Source of the DNA: SAR86 cluster bacterium
GTDB taxonomy: Bacteria > Pseudomonadota > Gammaproteobacteria > Magnimaribacterales > AG-339-G14
DNA: 64,000 nucleotides
Assembly: GCA_028135785.1 (NCBI GenBank)
Contig: JAOIHS010000002.1
Location: forward strand, 6,222-70,221
Reading direction: 5' to 3'
Positions 21,438-28,976 of this stretch are shown piece after piece. A program made the position numbers and the translations under genes. Every line of letters begins with the position of its first letter. Position 1 is the first letter of the stretch. The notes below the pieces were generated by a model. It worked only from the letters and a program-made list of their open reading frames with translations. It was not told the DNA's origin and ran no database searches.

Positions 21438-23263
21438 TGTGTGGAATTATTGCAGCAGCAACCAATAGAAATGTAGGTAAGCTTTTGGTCCAAGGCCTTC
21501 ATAAAATGGAGTATCGAGGATATGACTCAGCAGGTATTGCCTTACACCAAGAAACCTCAATAGTGCATTTAAGATGTTTAGGAAAAGTAAGGCGCTTAGA
21601 AGAGAAAATGATTGAAGAAAAGCCTAAGGGTAAAGTTGGTATTGCTCATACCAGGTGGGCAACTCATGGCGAGCCCTCTGAAGTAAATGCTCATCCGCAT
21701 TCCTCTAAAGAGAGGGTTTATATCGTACACAATGGCATCATTGAAAACTACATTGAGCTGAAAAAAGAATTAATTGAATACGGATATGCTTTCAGTTCGC
21801 AAACAGATTCAGAACTAATCGCTCATTTACTGGATTATTTTCTAAATCAGAAAAACACCATGATTGATGCCATGCATTCGATTAAAGAAAAAATGCAGGG
21901 TGCTTATGCGATTGCTGCAATTGATCAAGAAGATAGCGATTCTTTTTATCTGGCTAGAAATAATTCACCTCTATTATTAGGAGTAGGTTCAGAAGAGTTA
22001 TTTGCAGCCTCAGATCCTTTGGCTATTTCAGACTTAACGGATAAATTTATTTTTCTTGAAGATGGTGATGTGGTTGAGGCCTCCAGCAAAGCTTATAAAA
22101 TTTACGATAAAAATAAAGAAGAGGTACAAAGAGAGTTAACGCATTTAAATATTTCTGCTCAAGCAACTTCAAAAGGTGAATATAAGCACTTCATGGAAAA
22201 AGAAATATTCGAACAACCTACTGCTATCTTAAATACTATCGATGGCAGAATTGGCGGTGAAGACGTCTTGGAAAATATTTTTGGGGAAGGTTCAAACGAA
22301 TTATTGGCTCAAGTAAAAAGAATTCAGGTTGTTGCTTGCGGTACTAGTTTGCATGCAGGGAGAGTAGCAGCAAATTGGTTTTCTTCTATTTCTCAAGTTC
22401 CTACACAAATAGATTACGCCAGTGAGTATCGATACAAAAACCCATATATTGATAAAAATACTTTGCTAGTGACGATTTCACAGTCAGGCGAAACCGCCGA
22501 TACTTTGAGCGCTTTAAGATACGCTAAGAGTCAAAATTATTTGGGGTCGCTTACTATCTGTAACGTTCCAACTAGTTCTATTGCGCGAGAGTCTGATTAT
22601 GTTTTGCTCACCAATGCTGGACCAGAAATAGGCGTAGCTTCAACTAAGGCCTTCACCACTCAATTAACTGCTTTGATGCTGTTGGCACTTTCTATTGCTA
22701 AAGCCAAAGATATAAATCCAAAACTTAGAACTAGACTGGCTACAGCCCTTAGAGCTTTACCAGAAATAGTATCTCAGTCTTTAGAATTGAGAGGTCAACT
22801 GATAGAGATAGCACCAAGTATCGCCAATAAAGACAATGCACTTTTTCTAGGTAGAGGAATGTTTTACCCAATTGCTAAAGAGGGTGCTTTAAAACTAAAA
22901 GAAATATCTTACATTCATGCGGAAGCCTATCCGGCTGGAGAATTGAAACATGGTCCTTTGGCTTTGATAGATGAGAACATGCCAGTCATCGCGCTAGCTC
23001 CCGAAAGTGACTTTGCTGAAAAATTAATTTCAAATTTAGAAGAAGTAAAAGCGAGGGGTGGAACTTTATATGTGTTTGGTAACGCTGCTGGAGATCTAAG
23101 TATTGATTCCGGGAAACTCATCAACATGCCGGAGTGTGATTTTTTGCTTACGCCAATTTTATACACTGTGCCCTTGCAAATTCTTTCTTACGAGGTTGCT
23201 TTGCTTAGAGGTACAGATATTGATCAACCAAGAAACTTGGCTAAGTCTGTGACGGTGGAGTAG
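21437..23263 (+). CDS. glmS: Glutamine--fructose-6-phosphate aminotransferase GlmS
   Basis: MCGI N-terminal nucleophile, two SIS domains (SQSGETADT), conserved C-terminus NLAKSVTVE-stop. Confidence 0.98.
   Translation: MCGIIAAATNRNVGKLLVQGLHKMEYRGYDSAGIALHQETSIVHLRCLGKVRRLEEKMIEEKPKGKVGIAHTRWATHGEPSEVNAHPHSSKERVYIVHNGIIENYIELKKELIEYGYAFSSQTDSELIAHLLDYFLNQKNTMIDAMHSIKEKMQGAYAIAAIDQEDSDSFYLARNNSPLLLGVGSEELFAASDPLAISDLTDKFIFLEDGDVVEASSKAYKIYDKNKEEVQRELTHLNISAQATSKGEYKHFMEKEIFEQPTAILNTIDGRIGGEDVLENIFGEGSNELLAQVKRIQVVACGTSLHAGRVAANWFSSISQVPTQIDYASEYRYKNPYIDKNTLLVTISQSGETADTLSALRYAKSQNYLGSLTICNVPTSSIARESDYVLLTNAGPEIGVASTKAFTTQLTALMLLALSIAKAKDINPKLRTRLATALRALPEIVSQSLELRGQLIEIAPSIANKDNALFLGRGMFYPIAKEGALKLKEISYIHAEAYPAGELKHGPLALIDENMPVIALAPESDFAEKLISNLEEVKARGGTLYVFGNAAGDLSIDSGKLINMPECDFLLTPILYTVPLQILSYEVALLRGTDIDQPRNLAKSVTVE
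23246..23263 (+). repeat. glmS-terminus copy 0 (resident, functional): TCT GTG ACG GTG GAG TAG = SVTVE-stop
   Basis: Last 18 nt of the glmS ORF. Serves as the reference for copies 1-5. Confidence 0.95.
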
Positions 23264-23274
23264 TTTCGAGTGAC
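23264..23274. repeat. Left arm of a perfect 11-bp inverted repeat (TTTCGAGTGAC) bounding unit 1
   Basis: Exact reverse complement of 24141-24151. Starts immediately after the glmS stop and contains the GTG start (23270) of the unit-1 ORF. Confidence 0.85.
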
Positions 23275-24097
23275 TATTAAAGAAGTAAAAAAATTAGTTA
23301 CTTCATACACTCAAACAAAGAATAAACTAAAAAAACTTGCCCCCACTTTTAATTGGGGAAATCTTCTTGCTGATTATGGTGAGTATGTTTGTATTCAACA
23401 TTATTCTTTGAAACAAGCACCAATTGGAACAAAAGGATTCGATGCAAAAACCAAGAGAAATAAAAGTGTGCAAATCAAGACTGTCAGGGACACTACTAGG
23501 AACATCAGATTCACAAAAGGAGCAGATTACTTGTTGGTTATTGAGGTAGACGAAGATGCTGAATGGAACGAAGTTTATTACGGAAATTTTGCCAAAATTA
23601 TCAAGGCATCTTCCATGACAAAAAATGGCAAATATACTATAGGGATAGAGAAACTTAAGAAAATTTCAAACAATACCTACAAACCAAAGGAAGATATTGA
23701 ATTAACACTCAAAACAGGCAGGAAAATAACTGCTGCCTCTAGAGAAGAACTACATAAAAAACTTACAAAAATGGGGCATAAGTTACCTCGAATAGAAACA
23801 ATTAATAGACGAATAAATGACTTTGATTGGCAATTAGAAAGAGCATTTCAAATAAAGGTTCCTCCCAATTATGCTGAAGTAGAAAATTTAGTAGAAAAAG
23901 AAGGTTATGAGTGGTTTCCTGAAACACCAACTCAAGATAACAGCAGACAACCCTTTGTTTCAGATTTTGAAAAGAGAGTATATATTTCCCAAAAATACTT
24001 TTGCAAAGAGCATGGATTAAAAGAATGGTATGTTAGTGAAAAAAAAGAACTGGGTTGGGATTCAGCAAGGATAATTATGAGTTTTAGGCAGTCATAA
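23270..24097 (+). CDS. Hypothetical protein: N-terminal Mrr-like PD-(D/E)xK nuclease core fused to two C-terminal HTH-like modules of the kind seen in free-standing homing endonucleases
   Basis: 275 aa. Has E38 (GEY), D58 (KGFDA) and Q68-I-K70 (SVQIKT), followed by hydrophobic strand YLLVIEVDED, i.e. a D..QxK signature as in Mrr-cat nucleases. C-terminal half has RIETINRRINDFDWQLERAF and LKEWYVSEKKELGWDSARII (x-I-x-R-R-I..[GD]W..E-x-A type). The GGTGGAG of the glmS end serves as a Shine-Dalgarno-like element 7 nt upstream of the GTG start. Motif-level call only. Confidence 0.5.
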   Translation: MTIKEVKKLVTSYTQTKNKLKKLAPTFNWGNLLADYGEYVCIQHYSLKQAPIGTKGFDAKTKRNKSVQIKTVRDTTRNIRFTKGADYLLVIEVDEDAEWNEVYYGNFAKIIKASSMTKNGKYTIGIEKLKKISNNTYKPKEDIELTLKTGRKITAASREELHKKLTKMGHKLPRIETINRRINDFDWQLERAFQIKVPPNYAEVENLVEKEGYEWFPETPTQDNSRQPFVSDFEKRVYISQKYFCKEHGLKEWYVSEKKELGWDSARIIMSFRQS

Positions 24098-24140
24098 AAA
24101 ATGACTTATAAGTATAATAAAAAGTTAAATGTCTTTATTC

Positions 24141-24151
24141 GTCACTCGAAA
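24141..24151. repeat. Right arm of the perfect 11-bp inverted repeat (GTCACTCGAAA) bounding unit 1
   Basis: Exact reverse complement of 23264-23274. Ends 4 nt before glmS-terminus copy 1. Confidence 0.85.
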
Positions 24152-24155
24152 ACAG

Positions 24156-24173
24156 TCAGTGACAGTGGAGTAA
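24156..24173 (+). repeat. glmS-terminus copy 1: TCA GTG ACA GTG GAG TAA = SVTVE-stop
   Basis: 15/18 identical to copy 0. All 3 differences fall at codon third positions (stop TAG to TAA). A terminator-like hairpin follows. Confidence 0.85.
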
Positions 24174-24217
24174 ATCAACCTCAACTTTCGTTTTAATCCC
24201 GCATTCTGCGGTTGTTT
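24167..24217. repeat. Left arm of an approximately 50-nt imperfect inverted repeat flanking the R-M unit
   Basis: The reverse complement AAACAACCGCAGAATGCGGGATTAAAACGAAAGTTGAGGTTGATTTACTCC aligns with 25989-26036. The distal 25 nt match 22/25, and the AAAC(A)ACCGCAGAA block is shared apart from a 1-nt indel. The middle has small indels. Confidence 0.75.
24199..24217 (+). terminator. Possible intrinsic terminator (CCGCA-TTC-TGCGG followed by TTGTTT), candidate ancestral glmS terminator
   Basis: 5-bp GC-rich stem with a 3-nt loop and a T-rich tail, 26 nt after the stop codon of copy 1. The stem is short. Confidence 0.4.
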
Positions 24218-24339
24218 CGTAAATTAATAAAAAGAATTCCCGGTAAAAATTACCTTAAAAATTTCACCTATTTTTTCGTGTTAGCGGAAGTCATAAGGGG
24301 TTTATAAGAACGATTGCGATCTCTTATGAGTATTAATAA

Positions 24340-24378
24340 GGCAATTGCCTGGAAATTTCAATAATCACAAGTTATAAT
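24340..24378 (+). promoter_or_regulatory. Candidate promoter/operator of the methyltransferase gene
   Basis: 10-bp palindrome GGCAATTGCC (24340-24349) abuts a -35-like TGGAAA (24350-24355). A 17-nt spacer leads to a perfect -10 TATAAT (24373-24378), only 7 nt before the ATG at 24386. No Shine-Dalgarno is present, which suggests a leaderless mRNA. Confidence 0.35.
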
Positions 24379-24385
24379 TAAATCG

Positions 24386-25135
24386 ATGAAATTAAACAAA
24401 ATTTATGAAGAAGATTGCCTTTCAACATTAAAAAAGATGAAAGATGATTCAGTTGATGTTGTTATAACCTCTCCCCCATACAACATGAATCTAAGGATTA
24501 GAAATGGGAAATACTGCTCAAGACAAATCGTTAAAGAAATAAGTACAAAATATACTGAATTCAGCGATAACCTACCAATCGATGAATACAATGAATTTCA
24601 CACAAATGTATTAAAGGAACTCCTAAGAGTATCAAATCTAATTTTCTATAATATTCAAATTGTTACTGGTAGCAAAAGATCAATTTTTAAAATGATAGGT
24701 GAGTTTTCTGAGAATCTAAAAGAGATAATTGTATGGGATAAGGGAAATGGTCAACCAGCAATGCAACAACAAGTTCTTAATAGAAGAACTGAGTTAATAC
24801 TTGTTTTTGAGAAGGACTATCCGATAAGCAGGCAATTTAGAAAGAGAGGAGAATTTAAAAGAGGAACACTTGATGATTTGTGGTTGATAAAAAGAGGAAA
24901 AAAAGTCGGAGGAGAGAATCACGGAGCAGTTTTTCCTGAAGAACTCGTATCAACCATACTTGAAAACTTTTCTAAAGAAGATGACATCATCTATGATCCT
25001 TTTATGGGTACTGGAACAACCGCAGTTGTTGCTAAGCAATTAAATAGAAAATTCATTGGAAGCGAAATAAGTCAACGGTATATAGAAATAGCAGAAGAAA
25101 GACTTAAAAAGACAAATGATCTTTTAAGTAAATAG
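24386..25135 (+). CDS. Type II DNA methyltransferase, beta-class, predicted N4-cytosine specific
   Basis: Motif IV SPPY at residues 29-32 (DVVITSPPYN) lies N-terminal to motif I (DPFMGTGTT), giving the beta-class circular permutation. SPPY rather than DPPY favours N4mC. Adjacent to an MvaI/BcnI-like nuclease. Confidence 0.85.
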   Translation: MKLNKIYEEDCLSTLKKMKDDSVDVVITSPPYNMNLRIRNGKYCSRQIVKEISTKYTEFSDNLPIDEYNEFHTNVLKELLRVSNLIFYNIQIVTGSKRSIFKMIGEFSENLKEIIVWDKGNGQPAMQQQVLNRRTELILVFEKDYPISRQFRKRGEFKRGTLDDLWLIKRGKKVGGENHGAVFPEELVSTILENFSKEDDIIYDPFMGTGTTAVVAKQLNRKFIGSEISQRYIEIAEERLKKTNDLLSK

Positions 25136-25171
25136 ATAGTTTTAGAGAATCATTTATGTCATATTTCTTAT

Positions 25172-25924
25172 ATGGCAGACATAGAAAAAGCAAAACGAGA
25201 ATTTCAAAGAATCAAATCGCTTGGTTATGTCTTAAGCGATAAACCCTTTGCAAAAAAGAATGACGGAGCAATTGGCAATACTTTTGAAACTTTGCTTGGC
25301 GTTGAAGAGAACAACCTAAGAGATGCAGATTTTGAAGGTTGGGAATGCAAAAGTCAGCGCAAACACACCAATTCCGCTTCTAGTTTATTTACAAGGAAAC
25401 CAGACTATCCTCATGGAGGTGATGAATACATGAGGGAGAATTGGGGTATAAAAGATACTGAGTTCCCAAATTTAAAGGTATTTAGAACCTCAATTTATTA
25501 TCATAGGTGGTCGATGGTGTATAACAAATACAAAATGAGATTAAGGATAAATGAACCCAATGAAAGACTTGAAATAATCCTCTGTGATCTTGATGAAAAT
25601 ATTATTGATGAAAGTGTTTATTGGTCATTTAAATCACTAAAAGAAGCAAGTTCAAAACTTAAGAACACATTCGTTGTAAAAGCAGAAGAAAAAACCATTA
25701 ATGAAAAAGTATATTTTAAATATATAGAAGGAACAGTCTATATGAATTTTAATTTTGGTAATCTAATTAAATTAATAAAAGATGGCAAAGCAAGATATGA
25801 CAATAGACTTGGAGTATATCGCACAGGAGACAAGAGAGGAAAAAAACATAATCATGGGGGTGGGATAAGACTAGTTAGTTCAGACTCTTACAAAGATCTC
25901 TTCGATGATTATGAAAGTTTATAG
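25172..25924 (+). CDS. Type II restriction endonuclease, MvaI/BcnI-like
   Basis: 250 aa. The block GYV..(x)..DGAIGNTFETLLGVEENNLRDADFEGWECKS (D..ExK core ECK at 58-60) and the C-terminal HNHGGGIRL..YKDLF resemble, from memory, the BcnI/MvaI family. Lies 36 nt downstream of the methyltransferase. Confidence 0.7.
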   Translation: MADIEKAKREFQRIKSLGYVLSDKPFAKKNDGAIGNTFETLLGVEENNLRDADFEGWECKSQRKHTNSASSLFTRKPDYPHGGDEYMRENWGIKDTEFPNLKVFRTSIYYHRWSMVYNKYKMRLRINEPNERLEIILCDLDENIIDESVYWSFKSLKEASSKLKNTFVVKAEEKTINEKVYFKYIEGTVYMNFNFGNLIKLIKDGKARYDNRLGVYRTGDKRGKKHNHGGGIRLVSSDSYKDLFDDYESL

Positions 25925-25988
25925 TTTTGTATCTAAGGAATATAAAGTAACTTATGAGTAATTTATGCAACCAAACCCCAATACTTTC

Positions 25989-26036
25989 AAACACCGCAGA
26001 AATAGCGGAGAATGAAAGTCGAGGTTCACTTACTCC
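25989..26036. repeat. Right arm of the approximately 50-nt imperfect inverted repeat flanking the R-M unit
   Basis: AAACACCGCAGAAATAGCGGAGAATGAAAGTCGAGGTTCACTTACTCC is an inverted copy of the segment formed by GGAGTAA plus the hairpin region at 24167-24217. Its terminal TTACTCC pairs with the GGAGTAA of copy 2 (7-bp stem, 8-nt loop). Confidence 0.75.
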
Positions 26037-26051
26037 GTTACCGTGGAGTAA
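26034..26051 (+). repeat. glmS-terminus copy 2: TCC GTT ACC GTG GAG TAA = SVTVE-stop
   Basis: 14/18 identical to copy 0. All 4 differences are at third codon positions. Confidence 0.85.
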
Positions 26052-26243
26052 TCAAAGGGGGTGTAGTTTTAGAGTTCACATTAGAGACTTAATCGAACAA
26101 CCTCACCTATCACCAACCCTATTCCAAGAGACAACAAATAATCTTTAACCTTATTGAATGTCTTCATGAAGATAAGGGTTGCGATTTCTATTTATTCTGA
26201 GATTATAGAAAATTAAATTAAACTCATTTTGTAGGGAAAGATT

Positions 26244-26624
26244 ATGATAAAAAAAGAATCTATTTTTTTAGTATTTGTTGCTATTGGTGTATTTTCTGCT
26301 TCTTTGGGATATGGTTTTGTACCAAGCCTAACAATGCCTTTTTTGTATGAAATAGAAATAACCAATACAAATTTATTAAATATTTTAAGAGCAATTTCGG
26401 GTTTATATATAGCCTTAGTAACCTTTTGGATAATAGGTGCATATAACTCTAATCTTCAATTACCTGCTCTATGGAGTTTAACAATCTTCATGACTGGGAT
26501 AGCTTTAGGAAGAGTTGCAAGCATCTTAATTGATGGTTTGCCCAGTCCAATCTTTATTTTTTATCTATTTATAGAAATTATTTCCGGCTTAATAGGTTAC
26601 GCACTTTTGAAGGGGAAATTATGA
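26244..26624 (+). CDS. Small four-TM membrane protein (DUF4345-like)
   Basis: 126 aa, four hydrophobic segments, GRVASILIDGLPSP motif. The family assignment is tentative. Confidence 0.6.
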   Translation: MIKKESIFLVFVAIGVFSASLGYGFVPSLTMPFLYEIEITNTNLLNILRAISGLYIALVTFWIIGAYNSNLQLPALWSLTIFMTGIALGRVASILIDGLPSPIFIFYLFIEIISGLIGYALLKGKL

Positions 26625-26818
26625 AGTTTCTATTAAGCGTGATCGCACTATGCACTTTAATGATTAAAGCCCAACAGAGAATATTAGTTTTAGAAAAGGA
26701 ACTAATCCACAAAAAAAAGAGCAGTAAAGTCATTGGAATTACTAGAAAACCCCCCAATACGAATCATAAACAACTCCGTAACGGTGGAGTAGATTTGGTT
26801 GTACCGGTTTTAAAATAA
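26621..26818 (+). CDS. Small hypothetical protein (65 aa), translationally coupled to the upstream gene
   Basis: ATGA start/stop overlap with 26244-26624. Hydrophobic N-terminus and basic C-terminus. Its 3' end reads through glmS-terminus copy 3 in a different frame. Confidence 0.4.
   Translation: MKFLLSVIALCTLMIKAQQRILVLEKELIHKKKSSKVIGITRKPPNTNHKQLRNGGVDLVVPVLK
26775..26792 (+). repeat. glmS-terminus copy 3: TCC GTA ACG GTG GAG TAG = SVTVE-stop
   Basis: 16/18 identical to copy 0. Both differences are at third codon positions. Confidence 0.85.
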
Positions 26819-26828
26819 GGAGAAAGAT

Positions 26829-26993
26829 ATGAGATTTAGTATTTCAACAATTATAGGAATTTTCCTAGGTGTATCTACATTTATGTTTTATGTCTCCAAT
26901 GTCAGACCAGTGGGTTGGTTTGATTCACTGGTAGGTATGATTTTAGGGGTAATAGTATTTGTGGTAGTTAAGAGATTTAAAGGTTTTAAGTGA
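26829..26993 (+). CDS. Unlisted small membrane protein (54 aa, two TM segments)
   Basis: ATG at 26829 is preceded by AAGGAG (26817-26822, 6-nt spacer). Translation is MRFSISTIIGIFLGVSTFMFYVSNVRPVGWFDSLVGMILGVIVFVVVKRFKGFK. Too short for the ORF track. It is the only ORF in the interval between copies 3 and 4. Confidence 0.55.
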   Translation: MRFSISTIIGIFLGVSTFMFYVSNVRPVGWFDSLVGMILGVIVFVVVKRFKGFK

Positions 26994-27018
26994 AAACAAC
27001 TGTTACAAACAATTCAAC

Positions 27019-27036
27019 TCGGTCACTGTTGAGTAG
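27019..27036 (+). repeat. glmS-terminus copy 4: TCG GTC ACT GTT GAG TAG = SVTVE-stop
   Basis: 14/18 identical to copy 0. All 4 differences are at third codon positions. Lies 7 nt upstream of the msrAB-fusion ATG. Confidence 0.85.
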
Positions 27037-27043
27037 AAATATA

Positions 27044-28330
27044 ATGAAGGTTTTGTCGCTTTTATTGATCTCTTTTTTTAGTATTTTTGCATCAGCTGCG
27101 ATCACCGAAGCAACGATTCACTCTGAGAAAATTATTCTTGGCTCTGGTTGTTTTTGGGGTGCTGAAAAAGGTTATGAATCTCTGCCCGGAGTGATAGATG
27201 CAGTATCGGGTTATGCTGATGGCGATGGGGTGCGACCAACCTACAGAGAGATCACAAAGCCAAAAAATAAATTCAACCCAAACAATCATGCTGAAGTGGT
27301 GGAGGTTACTTATAACAAAAATATTATTTCTACAGAGGGCATTCTCATCCATTACCTAGAATCACATGATCCAACTCAAGTGAATAGACAGGGCAATGAT
27401 ATTGGAACCCAATATAGATCCATAATTCTTTATTCAAACGAAGATCAAAGATTAGCGATTTTGAATACGATTTCTATCTATCAGGCGCTGCTTAAAGATG
27501 CTGGATACGGCAAGATAGCAACTGAAGTAAAGCCAATCCAAGAGTTTTATAAAGCCGAAAAATACCATCAAGACTACATTAAAAAAAATCCAAATGGGTA
27601 TTGTCCAGATCACTCCACAGGAGTGACTTTTAATGAGGTTAAAAAAGGCATTTCAGATCTTAAACCATTTGCTGACCCAGCTTTTGACAATAGTCTTTTA
27701 TTAAAAGGAAAACATATTTTGGTAATAGTTTCAGATGGGTATTGTCCATATTGTGAAAAATTTAAAAAAGATATTACTAGTGAATACAAAGGAACGATTC
27801 CGCTCACCAACAGAACAGCCAGCCAGCTCAATGACTTAAAAATAAAAACACCAAAATGGGCCACACCAACAATTATTTTTATTCAAGACGGAACAGAGGT
27901 ATTTGGTCATCAAGGGTACATGACACCCAAAGAATTTTATAAGGCTCTTGGTAAATTCAAATTGGGTAATTCAGAAGCATATAAGGTAGCTTTTGCAGAT
28001 GGAACTGACGCAAGGTTCTGTAAAGAATACGAAATCTTTAAAAATACTCCTGATGGAGTTTTTATAGACAAGCTTAGTGGAGCGGCGTTATTCGATACAA
28101 AAGATCGATTTAATTCTTCCACAGGCTGGCTATCATTCACAAAGCCAGTATACGATTCTGTTTATACCAAACCTGATAATAGCTATGGGATGAGAAGAAC
28201 AGAAATAAGATCTATAACTTCTGACATTCACCTAGGCCATGTATTTGCTGATGGGCCAAATGGGATGCCAAGGTATTGTATAAACGCCACAGTGTTAGAA
28301 TTTATTAAACGAGCAGATATCAAAATCTAA
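27044..28330 (+). CDS. msrAB: Secreted tri-domain methionine sulfoxide reductase: MsrA - thioredoxin-fold (CPYC) - MsrB
   Basis: Signal peptide MKVLSLLLISFFSIFASAA. MsrA motif GSGCFWG. Middle Trx-fold with CPYC and cis-Pro TPT. C-terminal MsrB motifs GWLSF, HLGHVFADGP, RYCIN. Start moved to the ATG at 27044, because the track start at 26990 would read through copy 4. Confidence 0.85.
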   Translation: MKVLSLLLISFFSIFASAAITEATIHSEKIILGSGCFWGAEKGYESLPGVIDAVSGYADGDGVRPTYREITKPKNKFNPNNHAEVVEVTYNKNIISTEGILIHYLESHDPTQVNRQGNDIGTQYRSIILYSNEDQRLAILNTISIYQALLKDAGYGKIATEVKPIQEFYKAEKYHQDYIKKNPNGYCPDHSTGVTFNEVKKGISDLKPFADPAFDNSLLLKGKHILVIVSDGYCPYCEKFKKDITSEYKGTIPLTNRTASQLNDLKIKTPKWATPTIIFIQDGTEVFGHQGYMTPKEFYKALGKFKLGNSEAYKVAFADGTDARFCKEYEIFKNTPDGVFIDKLSGAALFDTKDRFNSSTGWLSFTKPVYDSVYTKPDNSYGMRRTEIRSITSDIHLGHVFADGPNGMPRYCINATVLEFIKRADIKI

Positions 28331-28388
28331 TAATATCTATCACAGTAGCCTAGTCTATAACCGTTACAGGATAAGAACCCTTTTTAGT

Positions 28389-28745
28389 TTAATTCAAATT
28401 ATATTTGATAATAAACTTAAGATCGCCCTGAGGAGATTCAAAATTGGTTGGCTGAAAAGTATTTGATACATCATCTAAATTACTTGTTTCGAAATTAAAT
28501 TCGAACCTGTTAGGTTTTTCTGAGCTTTGACTAATCAATTCACTAGTTTCTTCTTCTTCCTCAGTATCTCTAGTCAAGAAATATATCAATCCACCAACAA
28601 GTAACAACCCAGCTATAGCGCCTCCGCTTCCGCCTCCGCCATATCCTCCTCCGCCTGAGCTACTTCCACCTCCTCCTCCTCCATAAGCTTGGGTAAAACC
28701 AAGTGGAGCCATGACAAGCATGGTAACAAATAATAATATTTTCAT
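28389..28745 (-). CDS. Secreted/anchored glycine-rich low-complexity protein
   Basis: Signal peptide, a run GGGGGGSSSGGGGYGGGGSGG, one TM (AIAGLLLVGGLIYFL), then an acidic EEEEE tract. The only minus-strand gene in the array. Confidence 0.5.
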   Translation of the reverse strand: MKILLFVTMLVMAPLGFTQAYGGGGGGSSSGGGGYGGGGSGGAIAGLLLVGGLIYFLTRDTEEEEETSELISQSSEKPNRFEFNFETSNLDDVSNTFQPTNFESPQGDLKFIIKYNLN

Positions 28746-28961
28746 ATCTTCCTCTAATAATTTTATTAAAAAAATGTTGAGTGTCTAAAAGTTTTAAATT
28801 TTTAGTTAAAATAAAAAATTAAAGCTGAAGCAAGGCAACATCTTTAGTCTATGCTTAATTTTTTTAAATTCAATGCTTTCTAAAAGAGGTTATAAGCTAA
28901 AAGATATTAATGAACTCTATTTATTTAATCTTCAATCTCATCCAGTTTAGGCTTTAACTAA

Positions 28962-28976
28962 GTAACTGTTGAGTAG
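28962..28976 (+). repeat. glmS-terminus copy 5 (15 nt): GTA ACT GTT GAG TAG = VTVE-stop
   Basis: Ser codon lost, with an in-frame TAA directly upstream. All 3 differences from copy 0 are at third positions. Shares the 14-mer ACTGTTGAGTAGAA with copy 4. Confidence 0.7.

What the first reader, a model, noticed from the sequence alone, without database searches (positions are those of the whole stretch)
23270..24097. Orphan Mrr-like PD-(D/E)xK nuclease fused to tandem HTH modules: candidate glmS-targeted homing endonuclease or single-gene defence nuclease
Residues 30-100 carry E38, D58 and Q68-x-K70, followed by a hydrophobic strand (YLLVIEVDED). This matches the D...QxK variant of the restriction-endonuclease fold known from Mrr-type nucleases. 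Residues 150-270 contain two segments (KITAASREELHKKL..RIETINRRINDFDWQLERAF and YISQKYFCKEHGLKEWYVSEKKELGWDSARII). These resemble the short HTH DNA-binding repeats attached to free-standing homing endonucleases. I do not recognise this combination as a named family. Two readings fit the context. (a) A homing-type nuclease that recognises the conserved glmS terminus and drives its own insertion, consistent with the precise IR-bounded insertion. (b) A modification-dependent (type IV-like) or otherwise novel defence nuclease next to a type II R-M system in a defence islet.
Basis: inference. Interest (0 to 1): 0.72.

Follow-up and report, generated by a model that had tools for sequence, protein, structure and literature searches.

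The report
Mobile-cassette nuclease behind SAR86 glmS
This gene encodes an uncharacterised two-part DNA-cutting enzyme carried on a 0.9-kb mobile cassette inserted into the last codons of glmS in a marine SAR86 bacterium, and it is more likely anti-phage cargo of a cassette array than a glmS-specific homing enzyme.

Summary
The ORF at 23270-24097 is real and conserved, with dN/dS of 0.05-0.08. Residues 1-135 are Pfam DUF6998. They model as a PD-(D/E)xK nuclease closest to the BisI-family enzymes NhoI and Eco15I, with the same E...D...Q-I-K active site (E38, D58, Q68-I69-K70).

Residues 140-275 form a confidently modelled, basic, two-repeat module with no PDB or viral fold match. The same module is fused to GIY-YIG and T5orf172 nucleases elsewhere.

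The gene is the only ORF of a 910-bp promoterless cassette with 20-nt inverted repeats, bounded by two copies of the glmS terminus. It is the first of at least five cassettes. Six copies of GTNACNGTNGAGTAR lie at 23249-28976.

A 99.8% identical cassette sits between different neighbours in another contig. In 18 related SAR86 contigs, 10 carry two or three terminus copies bounding other cassettes, and none carries this gene. Relatives elsewhere lie between repeats of argJ or tRNA-Asn ends, or beside integrases. They often neighbour restriction-type genes.

Best reading: a stand-alone restriction-like nuclease carried as cassette cargo (0.5). Selfish homing remains possible (0.22).

The parts
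23270..24097 (+). ORF of 275 aa with a GTG start: DUF6998 nuclease domain plus a C-terminal two-repeat module
   Evidence: dN/dS is 0.05-0.08 between diverged homologues.
23270..23674 (+). N-terminal PD-(D/E)xK domain (residues 1-135), BisI/PvuII-like
   Evidence: Pfam PF22522, E = 9e-22. Foldseek hits to NhoI and Eco15I-N, E = 5e-6. A profile hit to Eco15I aligns the E, D-A and Q-I-K motifs, E = 0.046. PADLOC mREase_II, E = 7e-8.
23381..23383 (+). Codon of E38, the helix glutamate of the active site
   Evidence: At least 90% conserved. It lies in helix 31-44 of the model. It corresponds to Glu50 of NhoI as described in PMC11347163.
23441..23443 (+). Codon of D58, the 'PD' aspartate (here F-D-A)
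   Evidence: Invariant. It aligns with the 'AD' motif of Eco15I.
23471..23479 (+). Codons of Q68-I69-K70, the (D/E)xK motif in its QxK form
   Evidence: Invariant. The motif is identical to the QIK of Eco15I.
23687..24094 (+). C-terminal module (residues 140-275): two basic strand-plus-three-helix repeats separated by an acidic linker; putative DNA-binding module
   Evidence: Model pLDDT 89.3. pI values. Only 30 representative proteins out of 1.84e9 carry it, among them GIY-YIG and T5orf172/MUG113 fusions. No PDB or BFVD fold match.
23244..23263 (+). Functional glmS terminus (TCT GTG ACG GTG GAG TAG), left copy of the core repeat. GGTGGAG at 23254-23260 serves as the Shine-Dalgarno sequence for the ORF, with GGAG 9 nt before the GTG.
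23264..23283 (.). Left inverted-repeat arm of the cassette (TTTCGAGTGACTATTAAAGA). It overlaps the ORF start.
   Evidence: I1, 90% complementary.
24132..24151 (.). Right inverted-repeat arm of the cassette (TCTTTATTCGTCACTCGAAA)
24154..24173 (+). Displaced second copy of the glmS terminus (TCA GTG ACA GTG GAG TAA). It differs from the first copy only at synonymous third positions.
24199..24218 (+). Hairpin CCGCATTCTGCGG followed by a T-rich tail: probable original glmS terminator, now also ending the glmS-ORF transcript
   Evidence: Analogous G+C-rich hairpins with a T-rich tail follow the glmS stop in L075 and L035.
24386..25924 (+). Cassette 2: N4/N6 DNA methyltransferase (24386-25135) and MvaI/BcnI-family restriction endonuclease (25172-25924)
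   Evidence: Pfam E = 2e-40 and 1e-44. Promoter-like site at 24350-24378.
26037..28976 (+). Four further copies of the glmS-terminus core (26037-26051, 26778-26792, 27022-27036, 28962-28976). They bound cassettes 2-5.
   Evidence: Six '+' strand matches against 0.2 expected. Sequence contexts.

Best explanation
**What the protein is.** The ORF encodes a stand-alone, two-part DNA endonuclease.
- The N-terminal domain is a BisI/PvuII-like PD-(D/E)xK nuclease. E38, D58 and Q68 are positioned to bind Mg2+, and K70 completes the site. By analogy with its relatives it should act as a dimer and make a double-strand cut.
- The C-terminal module has two basic repeats and most likely binds DNA. It would choose the target, by sequence and/or modification state.

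**Where it sits.** The gene is the sole ORF of a 910-bp promoterless cassette.
- The cassette was inserted by site-specific recombination into the last codons of glmS.
- It is the newest member of an integron-like array of at least five cassettes anchored on the glmS stop codon.
- The gene is expressed by read-through from glmS. Its Shine-Dalgarno sequence lies in the last glmS codons, and the old glmS terminator lies just downstream.

**What moves it and what it does.** The cassette is moved by a trans-acting system that also moves the other cassettes, not by this protein. The protein itself most likely serves as a restriction-like or exclusion nuclease against foreign (phage) DNA.

**Shown versus inferred.**
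- Shown: fold, conserved active-site motif, purifying selection, cassette boundaries, the array, cassette mobility, and the architecture shared with phage nucleases.
- Inferred: catalytic activity, DNA binding by the C-terminal module, the defence role, and the nature of the target.
For: **Fold and active site.** Pfam DUF6998 hit. Invariant D58 and QIK, with E38 nearly invariant. Model pLDDT 86.8. NhoI and Eco15I are the top structural hits at probability 1.0. The BisI family uses Glu + (W/A)D + Q(V/I)K, and mutating these residues abolishes activity (PMC11347163). A profile alignment to Eco15I matches these motifs.

**Functional gene.** dN/dS is 0.05-0.08.

**Cassette and array.**
- Inverted and direct repeats bound the cassette.
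- Six core copies occur against 0.2 expected.
- All copies keep S-V-T-V-E-stop with wobble changes.
- 34 of 45 differences between repeat copies fall at third codon positions, p = 8e-9.
- Window 23243-24173 aligns to L014 at 99.1% over 931 bp although the neighbours differ. Identity ends inside the cores, and the ORFs differ at 2 synonymous sites.

**A trans-acting machinery.**
- Among 18 contigs of SAR86 strains with 97-98%-identical GlmS, the 10 that extend far enough carry two or three glmS-terminus copies bounding other cassettes. None of the 18 has DUF6998.
- The family is rare: 22 clusters in 5.8e9 proteins.
- Other family members lie beside tyrosine or serine recombinases or in a PrimPol/AlpA/integrase island.

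**Defence context.**
- A type II R-M system is the next cassette.
- An SRA-HNH gene lies inside the same argJ-bounded element in L030. An HSDR_N nuclease lies two cassettes downstream in L024. A Z1/SNF2 protein is a neighbour in L017.
- PADLOC mREase_II models hit the protein.

**Module sharing.** The C-terminal module also occurs on GIY-YIG and T5orf172 nucleases, one of them in a phage-like replication module.
Against: - No biochemical data exist for any DUF6998 protein. The literature search found nothing.
- The BisI 5mC-pocket motif (H/R)(V/I/T/M) could not be located, so modification dependence is unsupported.
- The C-terminal module has no fold match, so DNA binding is inferred only from charge and architecture.
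- Several cassettes in the arrays are not defence genes: MsrAB, membrane proteins and a methyltransferase.
- At the Prochlorococcus argJ site, this gene is the only ORF between the repeats in L012, L013 and L026-L028 (about 1.16 kb between terminus copies). L030 carries one extra gene. No recombinase is seen there. This is what a self-mobilising element would look like.
- No recombinase gene was found in the 64-kb window. The trans-acting enzyme is therefore postulated, not identified.
Confidence: 0.5

Rival explanations
1. The gene is a selfish, free-standing homing-type endonuclease gene. The protein would cut cassette-free alleles at or near the 3' end of the host gene (glmS here, argJ or tRNA-Asn in other hosts). 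Repair from a cassette-bearing copy would then spread the cassette. The cassette carries a recoded copy of the gene's last codons, so the host gene stays intact.
For: - The architecture is modular, nuclease plus DNA-binding module, and the module is shared with GIY-YIG and T5orf172 nucleases.
- The gene is the only ORF of compact units bounded by repeats of three unrelated gene termini.
- Repeat copies differ almost only at synonymous sites, as expected if the element supplies a functional replacement terminus.
- The site shows a sharp presence/absence polymorphism: an empty argJ site in L079/L080 and SAR86 relatives without the cassette.
- Divergent Prochlorococcus hosts differ strongly in ArgJ (dN = 0.47) but carry much more similar element proteins (dN = 0.07) at the same site.
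- Short DUF6998 genes also sit 6 nt after glmS in L045 and L047.
Against: - Cassettes without any nuclease have the same cores and the same kind of inverted-repeat ends.
- 0 of 18 unbiased SAR86 glmS loci carry the gene, although cassettes differ between the two sampled strain groups and among contigs encoding the same GlmS protein.
- The core is regenerated on both sides of the insertion, so a core-only target would not be destroyed.
- glmS-located proteins are polyphyletic and are interleaved with integrase-island copies.
- The C-terminal module keeps about 40-50% identity and many shared invariant residues across site types with unrelated target sequences.
- No homologue was found in the phage collections.
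- Only 1 of about 40 copies looks degraded. Purifying selection is strong.
- Homing does not by itself create the direct repeats.
Confidence: 0.22
2. The protein is the recombination or processing nuclease of the cassette system. It would recognise the structure formed by the cassette's inverted repeats around the glmS-end core, a cruciform or junction, and would cut there to excise or insert cassettes, in the manner of a junction-resolving enzyme.
For: - Hjc-type Holliday-junction resolvases are among the structural neighbours, with E = 0.03-0.4.
- Cassette ends carry cassette-specific inverted repeats whose arms co-vary, which suggests a recognised structure rather than a sequence.
- The exchange point maps to 'AC' inside the core.
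- No other recombinase gene is present in the window.
Against: - The gene is far too rare for this role. It is absent from all 18 sampled SAR86 glmS loci, 10 of which carry repeat-bounded cassettes, and forms only 22 clusters in the database.
- A hydrolytic PD-(D/E)xK nuclease cannot rejoin DNA by itself.
- The family also occurs at tRNA-Asn and argJ sites and inside ordinary integrase islands, where no such cores exist.
Confidence: 0.07
3. The protein is a catalytically inactive or non-defence DNA-binding protein, for example a regulator or a partner of another nuclease such as the DUF4379 protein, that happens to ride on mobile cassettes.
For: A DUF4379 zinc-finger gene follows the gene in six loci (2-nt gap in L001/L002), which suggests a partner in some lineages. 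The C-terminal module has no recognised function.
Against: The full E/D/QxK set is invariant or nearly invariant in 22 sequences. The window copy and most other copies have no DUF4379 partner.
Confidence: 0.05

Closest known systems
BisI family of modification-dependent (type IIM) restriction endonucleases, with solved structures for NhoI and Eco15I-N
   Same: Same PD-(D/E)xK fold; these are the top Foldseek hits at probability 1.0. Same active-site pattern of helix Glu, xD and Q-(I/V)-K; Eco15I has QIK, as here. Domain size is about 135-150 aa. Stand-alone short DUF6998 proteins also exist.
   Different: Only 15-18% identity in the structural alignments. The sequence-profile hit is marginal, E = 0.046. 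The (H/R)(V/I/T/M) 5mC pocket could not be identified. This protein has an extra 136-aa C-terminal module. Its substrate is unknown.
Modular free-standing homing endonucleases (GIY-YIG I-TevI/Seg type, nuclease plus linker plus HTH modules) and PD-(D/E)xK homing enzymes such as I-Ssp6803I (named from my own knowledge)
   Same: Bipartite architecture. The identical C-terminal module is found on proteins with GIY...YIG motifs or T5orf172/MUG113 domains. The gene is compact and shows patchy presence at a precise site.
   Different: It is not in an intron, intein or phage genome. No target is known. The insertion regenerates the core. Other nuclease-free cassettes share the same ends.
DpnI-type architecture (type IIM: PD-(D/E)xK domain plus a C-terminal DNA-binding domain)
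   Same: An N-terminal PD-(D/E)xK domain followed by a separate putative DNA-binding domain. DpnI is a weak structural hit, E = 0.1.
   Different: The C-terminal module shows no significant similarity to any PDB chain, DpnI's C-terminal domain included.
   Same: Uses a D...QxK variant of the motif (Bujnicki and Rychlewski 2001, cited in PMC11347163).
   Different: No Mrr_cat hit at E <= 1. Mrr is not among the structural neighbours.
Integron gene cassettes, CALINs, and tycheposon-type island accretion (these concern the context, not the protein)
   Same: Promoterless, co-oriented single-gene cassettes are stacked next to a fixed site. Each is bounded by a short conserved core plus an imperfect inverted repeat whose sequence varies between cassettes. 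The newest cassette lies next to the anchor. Tandem integrations that leave partial copies of the target gene are described for tycheposons at tRNA genes (bioRxiv 10.1101/2020.12.28.424599).
   Different: The anchor is the coding 3' end of glmS, and every core keeps the GlmS C-terminal codons. The inverted-repeat arms lie at the two ends of a cassette rather than inside one attC site. The exchange maps to GTSAC|N, not G|TTRRRY. No IntI or other integrase is nearby. The tycheposon paper does not mention glmS or argJ.

Membership tests
Pfam DUF6998 (PF22522) | HMM score above the gathering threshold | tested here: met
   77.9 bits against a cut-off of 27, E = 9e-22, residues 19-135. All 22 homologues carry the precomputed PF22522 assignment.
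PD-(D/E)xK nuclease superfamily | An alpha-beta-beta-beta-alpha-beta core with a helix Glu, an Asp at the start of strand 2 and (D/E/Q)xK on strand 3 | tested here: met
   Secondary structure of the model. Foldseek hits to NhoI, Eco15I, Hjc, DpnI and PvuII. E38, D58 and Q68-x-K70 are conserved.
BisI family (NhoI/Eco15I) | Recognisable sequence homology to family members | tested here: inconclusive
   The profile hit to Eco15I has E = 0.046 and aligns the catalytic motifs. The single-sequence search finds nothing. PADLOC mREase_II models hit at E = 7e-8 over residues 30-78 only.
BisI family (NhoI/Eco15I) | Methyl-binding pocket motif (H/R)(V/I/T/M) near the domain's C-terminus, and cleavage of multiply 5mC-methylated GCNGC | tested here: inconclusive
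   The motif is described in PMC11347163. The profile alignment stops before the equivalent region, and no obvious H/R-V pair is conserved there. Activity cannot be tested with these tools.
Mrr family | Match to the Mrr catalytic domain model (Mrr_cat) | tested here: not met
   The Pfam scan at E <= 1 lists DUF6998 and three noise hits only.
Homing endonuclease (functional class) | Nuclease domain joined to a separate DNA-binding module | tested here: met
   Two-domain model. The C-terminal module recurs on GIY-YIG and T5orf172 nucleases.
Homing endonuclease (functional class) | Alleles with and without the gene exist at one precise site | tested here: met
   Window versus SAR86 relatives. argJ site occupied versus empty.
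Homing endonuclease (functional class) | The insertion disrupts the enzyme's own target, and the mobility depends on the enzyme | tested here: inconclusive
   The glmS-end core is restored on both sides of the cassette. Nuclease-free cassettes have the same ends. The true target is unknown, and cleavage cannot be tested here.
Integron gene cassette | attC site with R''/L''/L'/R' boxes, exchange at G|TTRRRY, and an IntI integrase with attI next to the array | tested here: not met
   The exchange maps to 'AC' within GTSAC|NGT. The inverted-repeat arms lie at opposite cassette ends. No integrase is present in the 64-kb window.
Anti-phage defence gene (functional class) | Recurrent neighbourhood of known defence genes, or a match to defence-system models | tested here: met
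   R-M system (window), SRA-HNH, HSDR_N and Z1/SNF2 neighbours. PADLOC mREase_II hits. Protection itself cannot be tested here.

The most novel reading that the evidence does not exclude
The DUF6998-HTH protein may be the active agent of a new kind of minimal mobile element: a single-gene cassette whose PD-(D/E)xK nuclease is guided by a homing-type DNA-binding module. Such an element would insert into the last codons of conserved genes (glmS, argJ, tRNA-Asn) while supplying a recoded terminus. By extension, the SAR86 glmS-anchored, integrase-less cassette arrays would be a previously undescribed integron-like system in one of the most abundant marine bacteria.
Probability: 0.15. Interest if true: 0.85.

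Novelty: new variant of a known kind. Interest (0 to 1): 0.6.

Why it matters
No DUF6998 protein has been studied. This subfamily joins a BisI-like cutting domain to a DNA-binding-type module otherwise seen on GIY-YIG and T5orf172 nucleases, one of them in a phage-like replication module. The pairing suggests module exchange between defence nucleases and homing-type nucleases, and a possible new specificity for enzyme discovery.

The context may matter more than the protein. SAR86, Prochlorococcus and a Roseobacter relative all carry the gene in tiny units bounded by repeats of a conserved gene's 3' end. In SAR86 these units form an array anchored on the glmS stop codon, in which every repeat still encodes the GlmS C-terminus. 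I found no description of this in the searchable literature.

Identifying the enzyme that moves these cassettes would explain how streamlined ocean bacteria with no obvious integrases exchange flexible genes.

Tried and rejected
- **PDB sequence search** with the single protein gave noise only.
- **NCBIfam** gave no hit.
- **Phage collections.** IMG/VR and INPHARED hold no homologue, so this is not a typical phage free-standing homing gene. PLSDB plasmids hold only distant N-domain relatives.
- **Fold search of the C-terminal module alone** against PDB and BFVD gave nothing below E = 0.1. Names such as 'HTH homing endonuclease' at E of about 1-2 are not evidence.
- **Exact look-up of the window's GlmS** failed. 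I sampled relatives through 97-98%-identical GlmS proteins instead.
- **Ordinary integron.** Rejected on the exchange point, the repeat layout and the absence of an integrase.
- **Tn7-like insertion at attTn7.** Considered but not pursued. The boundary lies inside the glmS coding end, whereas from memory Tn7 inserts about 25 bp downstream of the stop. The long ORFs I read between glmS and 30.4 kb were annotated as other families or were short unknowns. No Tn7 gene or end search was run.
- **Transposon target-site duplication.** Rejected because the copies differ, and differ almost only at synonymous sites.
- **TATACC-N5-TATACC motifs as binding sites of the protein's two repeats.** These motifs flank the Prochlorococcus elements. 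They occur only in argJ-type loci and L015. They mark the element ends even when a second gene is present (L030). A related motif is present in the empty site.
- **Literature.** Nothing on DUF6998 or PF22522. No mention of glmS or argJ in the tycheposon paper. Nothing relevant on SAR86 plus glmS or islands.
Full report
**1. The observation**

The ORF at 23270..24097 (+ strand, 275 aa, GTG start) is present as described. It begins 6 nt after the glmS stop codon. The last glmS codons (GGTGGAG, 23254-23260) provide a Shine-Dalgarno sequence, with GGAG 9 nt upstream of the GTG.

Twenty-two full-length homologues share 46-67% identity. All come from marine metagenomes or MAGs/SAGs, including Candidatus Thioglobus and Planktomarina temperata. 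Prochlorococcus single-cell genomes also carry the gene. The N-termini align from residue 1.

D58, K65, Q68, I69, K70 and D86 are invariant, and E38 is nearly so. dN/dS between diverged pairs is 0.05-0.08. This is a real gene under selection.

**2. The N-terminal domain**

- Residues 19-135 match Pfam DUF6998 (PF22522), E = 9e-22. The domain is therefore named but uncharacterised. No paper mentions it.
- An AlphaFold model built on the family alignment has mean pLDDT 86.8.
- Foldseek against the PDB gives NhoI and the N-terminal domain of Eco15I as the first 12 hits, with E from 5e-6 to 7e-3 and probability 1.0. Hjc resolvases, DpnI and PvuII follow.
- NhoI and Eco15I belong to the BisI family of modification-dependent restriction enzymes. 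Their active site is a helix glutamate, a 'WD' or 'AD' aspartate, and 'QVK' or 'QIK' in place of (D/E)xK. Mutating these residues abolishes activity (PMC11347163).
- The present protein has E38 in helix 31-44, F-D58-A and Q68-I69-K70.
- A profile of the family finds Eco15I as the best PDB sequence, E = 0.046. That alignment superposes GDYGE/GDYAE, DA/DA, VQIK/VQIK and DYLL/DYLI.
- PADLOC's 'type II methyl-directed restriction enzyme' models hit residues 30-78, E = 7e-8.
- No Mrr model matches. 'BisI-like' is therefore more accurate than 'Mrr-like'.
- I could not locate the BisI 5mC-pocket motif. Modification dependence is open.

**3. The C-terminal module**

- Modelled alone, residues 136-275 give pLDDT 89.3. 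The model shows two units of short strands followed by three helices.
- The two units are basic, with pI 10.6 and 9.3. They are separated by an acidic linker.
- Nothing in the PDB or BFVD matches significantly, and no Pfam HTH model hits.
- A HMMER scan of 1.84 billion representative proteins with residues 140-275 finds only 30 proteins.
- Besides DUF6998 proteins, these include 244-267-aa proteins with T5orf172/MUG113 domains, which are GIY-YIG-like (P0146-P0148 by Pfam).
- They also include 344-414-aa proteins with clear GIY...YIG motifs and extra HTH-like segments.
- One T5orf172 member lies in a phage-like replication module.
- The module is thus a portable partner of three different nuclease domains.

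**4. The insertion is one cassette of an array**

- The ORF lies between 20-nt inverted repeats, 18/20 complementary. These are flanked by two 19-nt copies of the glmS terminus, 910 bp apart.
- A search for GTSACNGTNGARTAR with one mismatch allowed finds six copies. All are on the + strand, at 23249, 24159, 26037, 26778, 27022 and 28962, against 0.2 expected.
- The copies bound five units:
  1. this gene;
  2. an N4/N6 methyltransferase plus an MvaI/BcnI-family endonuclease;
  3. a 126-aa membrane protein;
  4. a 54-aa ORF;
  5. an MsrA-thioredoxin-MsrB fusion.
- After the last copy come DUF4399, DoxX and HXXEE genes. These are conserved in relatives.
- Five of the six copies encode S-V-T-V-E-stop with different wobble bases. 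The last copy keeps V-T-V-E-stop.
- Over nine repeat pairs from different loci, 34 of 45 differences are at third codon positions, p = 8e-9. This fits site-specific integration of elements that each carry a coding-competent copy of the target's end. It does not fit a transposon target duplication.
- Cassette ends carry inverted repeats of at least three types, whose arms co-vary within a cassette.
- The hairpin at 24199-24211 with its T-rich tail looks like the original glmS terminator. Analogous hairpins follow the glmS stop in L075 and L035. The nuclease gene therefore now sits inside the glmS transcription unit.

**5. The cassette is mobile as a unit**

- Metagenome contig L014 aligns with window 23243-24173 at 99.1% identity over 931 bp. 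The ORFs differ at two synonymous sites.
- In L014 the cassette sits between different neighbours. Identity starts and stops inside the cores, which maps the exchange to the 'AC' of GTSAC|NGT.

**6. Who moves it**

- The window is the oriC region of a SAR86 bacterium: recF-dnaN-dnaA ... parAB-atp-glmUS. Its GlmS is 100% identical to an NCBI SAR86 protein.
- No recombinase gene was seen among the window's long ORFs, which were read by eye rather than scanned with profile models.
- An unbiased sample was taken through two GlmS variants that are 97-98% identical to the window's. It gave 18 contigs. The 10 that extend beyond the first cassette carry two or three glmS-terminus copies.
- The cassettes they bound differ from the window's: a 205-aa unknown protein, a Methyltransf_23 plus GFA pair, and others. 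None of the 18 carries DUF6998.
- The family is also rare in the databases.
- The array machinery therefore does not depend on this gene in cis. The gene is too rare to be the general array enzyme.

**7. The family elsewhere**

- **Prochlorococcus.** In six contigs the gene lies between two copies of the argJ terminus, and two shorter contigs show the downstream copy only. Some of these also duplicate the following hairpin. One such element (L030) also carries an SRA-HNH gene. An empty argJ site exists in another strain.
- **Planktomarina-like contigs.** The gene plus a 68-aa ORF lies between 45-67-nt repeats of the tRNA-Asn 3' half. In L004 this sits next to an integrase island.
- **Other contexts.**
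  - a PrimPol/AlpA/integrase island;
  - beside a resolvase and an integrase;
  - directly after an integrase gene in L019 and L031;
  - followed by a DUF4379 zinc-finger gene in six loci;
  - next to a Z1/SNF2 protein in L017;
  - two cassettes upstream of an HSDR_N nuclease in L024.
- A neighbour-joining tree shows that glmS-located proteins are not monophyletic. They are interleaved with island-borne copies.
- The C-terminal module keeps about 40-50% identity across site types whose sequences are unrelated. This argues against the module reading the insertion site.

**8. Weighing the readings**

The cargo and defence reading explains:
- the shared cassette ends;
- the rarity of the gene;
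- the arrays that lack it;
- the integrase-island copies;
- the defence-type neighbours;
- the strong purifying selection.

The homing reading explains:
- the architecture;
- the recurrent single-gene, repeat-bounded units at three different gene termini;
- the Prochlorococcus comparison, where hosts with very different ArgJ (dN = 0.47) carry much more similar element proteins (dN = 0.07) at the same site. dS is saturated there, so old vertical descent under strong constraint is not excluded.

Homing does not explain how the direct repeats arise. It also does not explain why a core that is restored by insertion would stop being a target.

I put cargo/defence at 0.5, selfish homing at 0.22, a cassette-processing role at 0.07, and a non-catalytic role at 0.05.

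**9. Novelty**

The protein is a new variant of known kinds: a BisI-like nuclease joined to a homing-type module. The glmS-anchored, integrase-less cassette array is the less expected feature. I found no description of it, but my literature access is partial.

Noticed in passing
window 23244-28976: An array of at least five co-oriented cassettes is anchored on the glmS stop codon. Five of its six copies of the glmS terminus still encode SVTVE-stop and the last keeps VTVE-stop. Cassette ends carry cassette-specific inverted repeats of at least three types. The same array type, with different cassettes, occurs in related SAR86 strains (L059-L075).
   Followed up: partly
window 24386-25924: A complete type II R-M pair forms cassette 2: an N6_N4 methyltransferase plus an MvaI/BcnI-family endonuclease. 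A promoter-like site lies at 24350-24378. The right end of this cassette (25954-26050) resembles L035 1350-1450.
   Followed up: partly
window 26990-28330: The MsrA-thioredoxin-MsrB ORF, as listed from GTG 26990, runs across the core repeat at 27022-27036. The real start is probably ATG 27044, giving a signal-peptide-like MKVLSLLL.
   Followed up: no
window 1-23263: The window covers the replication-origin region: recF, dnaN, dnaA, yidC, mnmE, mnmG, rsmG, parA, parB, the atp operon, glmU and glmS. The cassette array therefore lies about 18 kb from dnaA. No integrase was noticed among the ORFs of the 64-kb window.
   Followed up: partly
L012 5841-7056; L013 5828-7033; L026-L028, L030, L036, L039: Prochlorococcus elements at the 3' end of argJ are bounded by diverged copies of the argJ end (some with the following hairpin). 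They carry tandem TATACC-N5-TATACC motifs at both ends. The empty site in L079/L080 has a related TATGAC-N5-TATGAC motif. In L030 the element also holds an SRA-HNH gene.
   Followed up: partly
L001 6001-7915; L002, L019, L020, L025, L031: In six loci the DUF6998-HTH gene is followed by a DUF4379 treble-clef zinc-finger protein, with a 2-nt gap in L001/L002 (three DUF4379 repeats and a weak REase_MTES_1575 hit in the L001 copy, the only one scanned). This may be a two-gene system.
   Followed up: no
L045 377-823; L047 3974-4417: Short stand-alone DUF6998 genes of 138-139 aa start 6 nt after the glmS stop in two GC-richer contigs. They lie between glmS and a UvrD-like gene (identified by eye from its N-terminal sequence). 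There is no second glmS-end copy.
   Followed up: no
L003 215-1894; L004 4818-6487; L033 1765-3528: Mini-islands of 1.6-1.7 kb hold the DUF6998-HTH gene and are bounded by 45-67-nt repeats of the tRNA-Asn 3' half. In L004 the mini-island lies directly beside a larger island with a DUF6538/phage-integrase gene, which indicates tandem accretion.
   Followed up: partly
L059 11847-12464: A 205-aa protein with no Pfam match occupies the glmS-proximal cassette in the most frequently sampled SAR86 variant. Its function is unknown.
   Followed up: no
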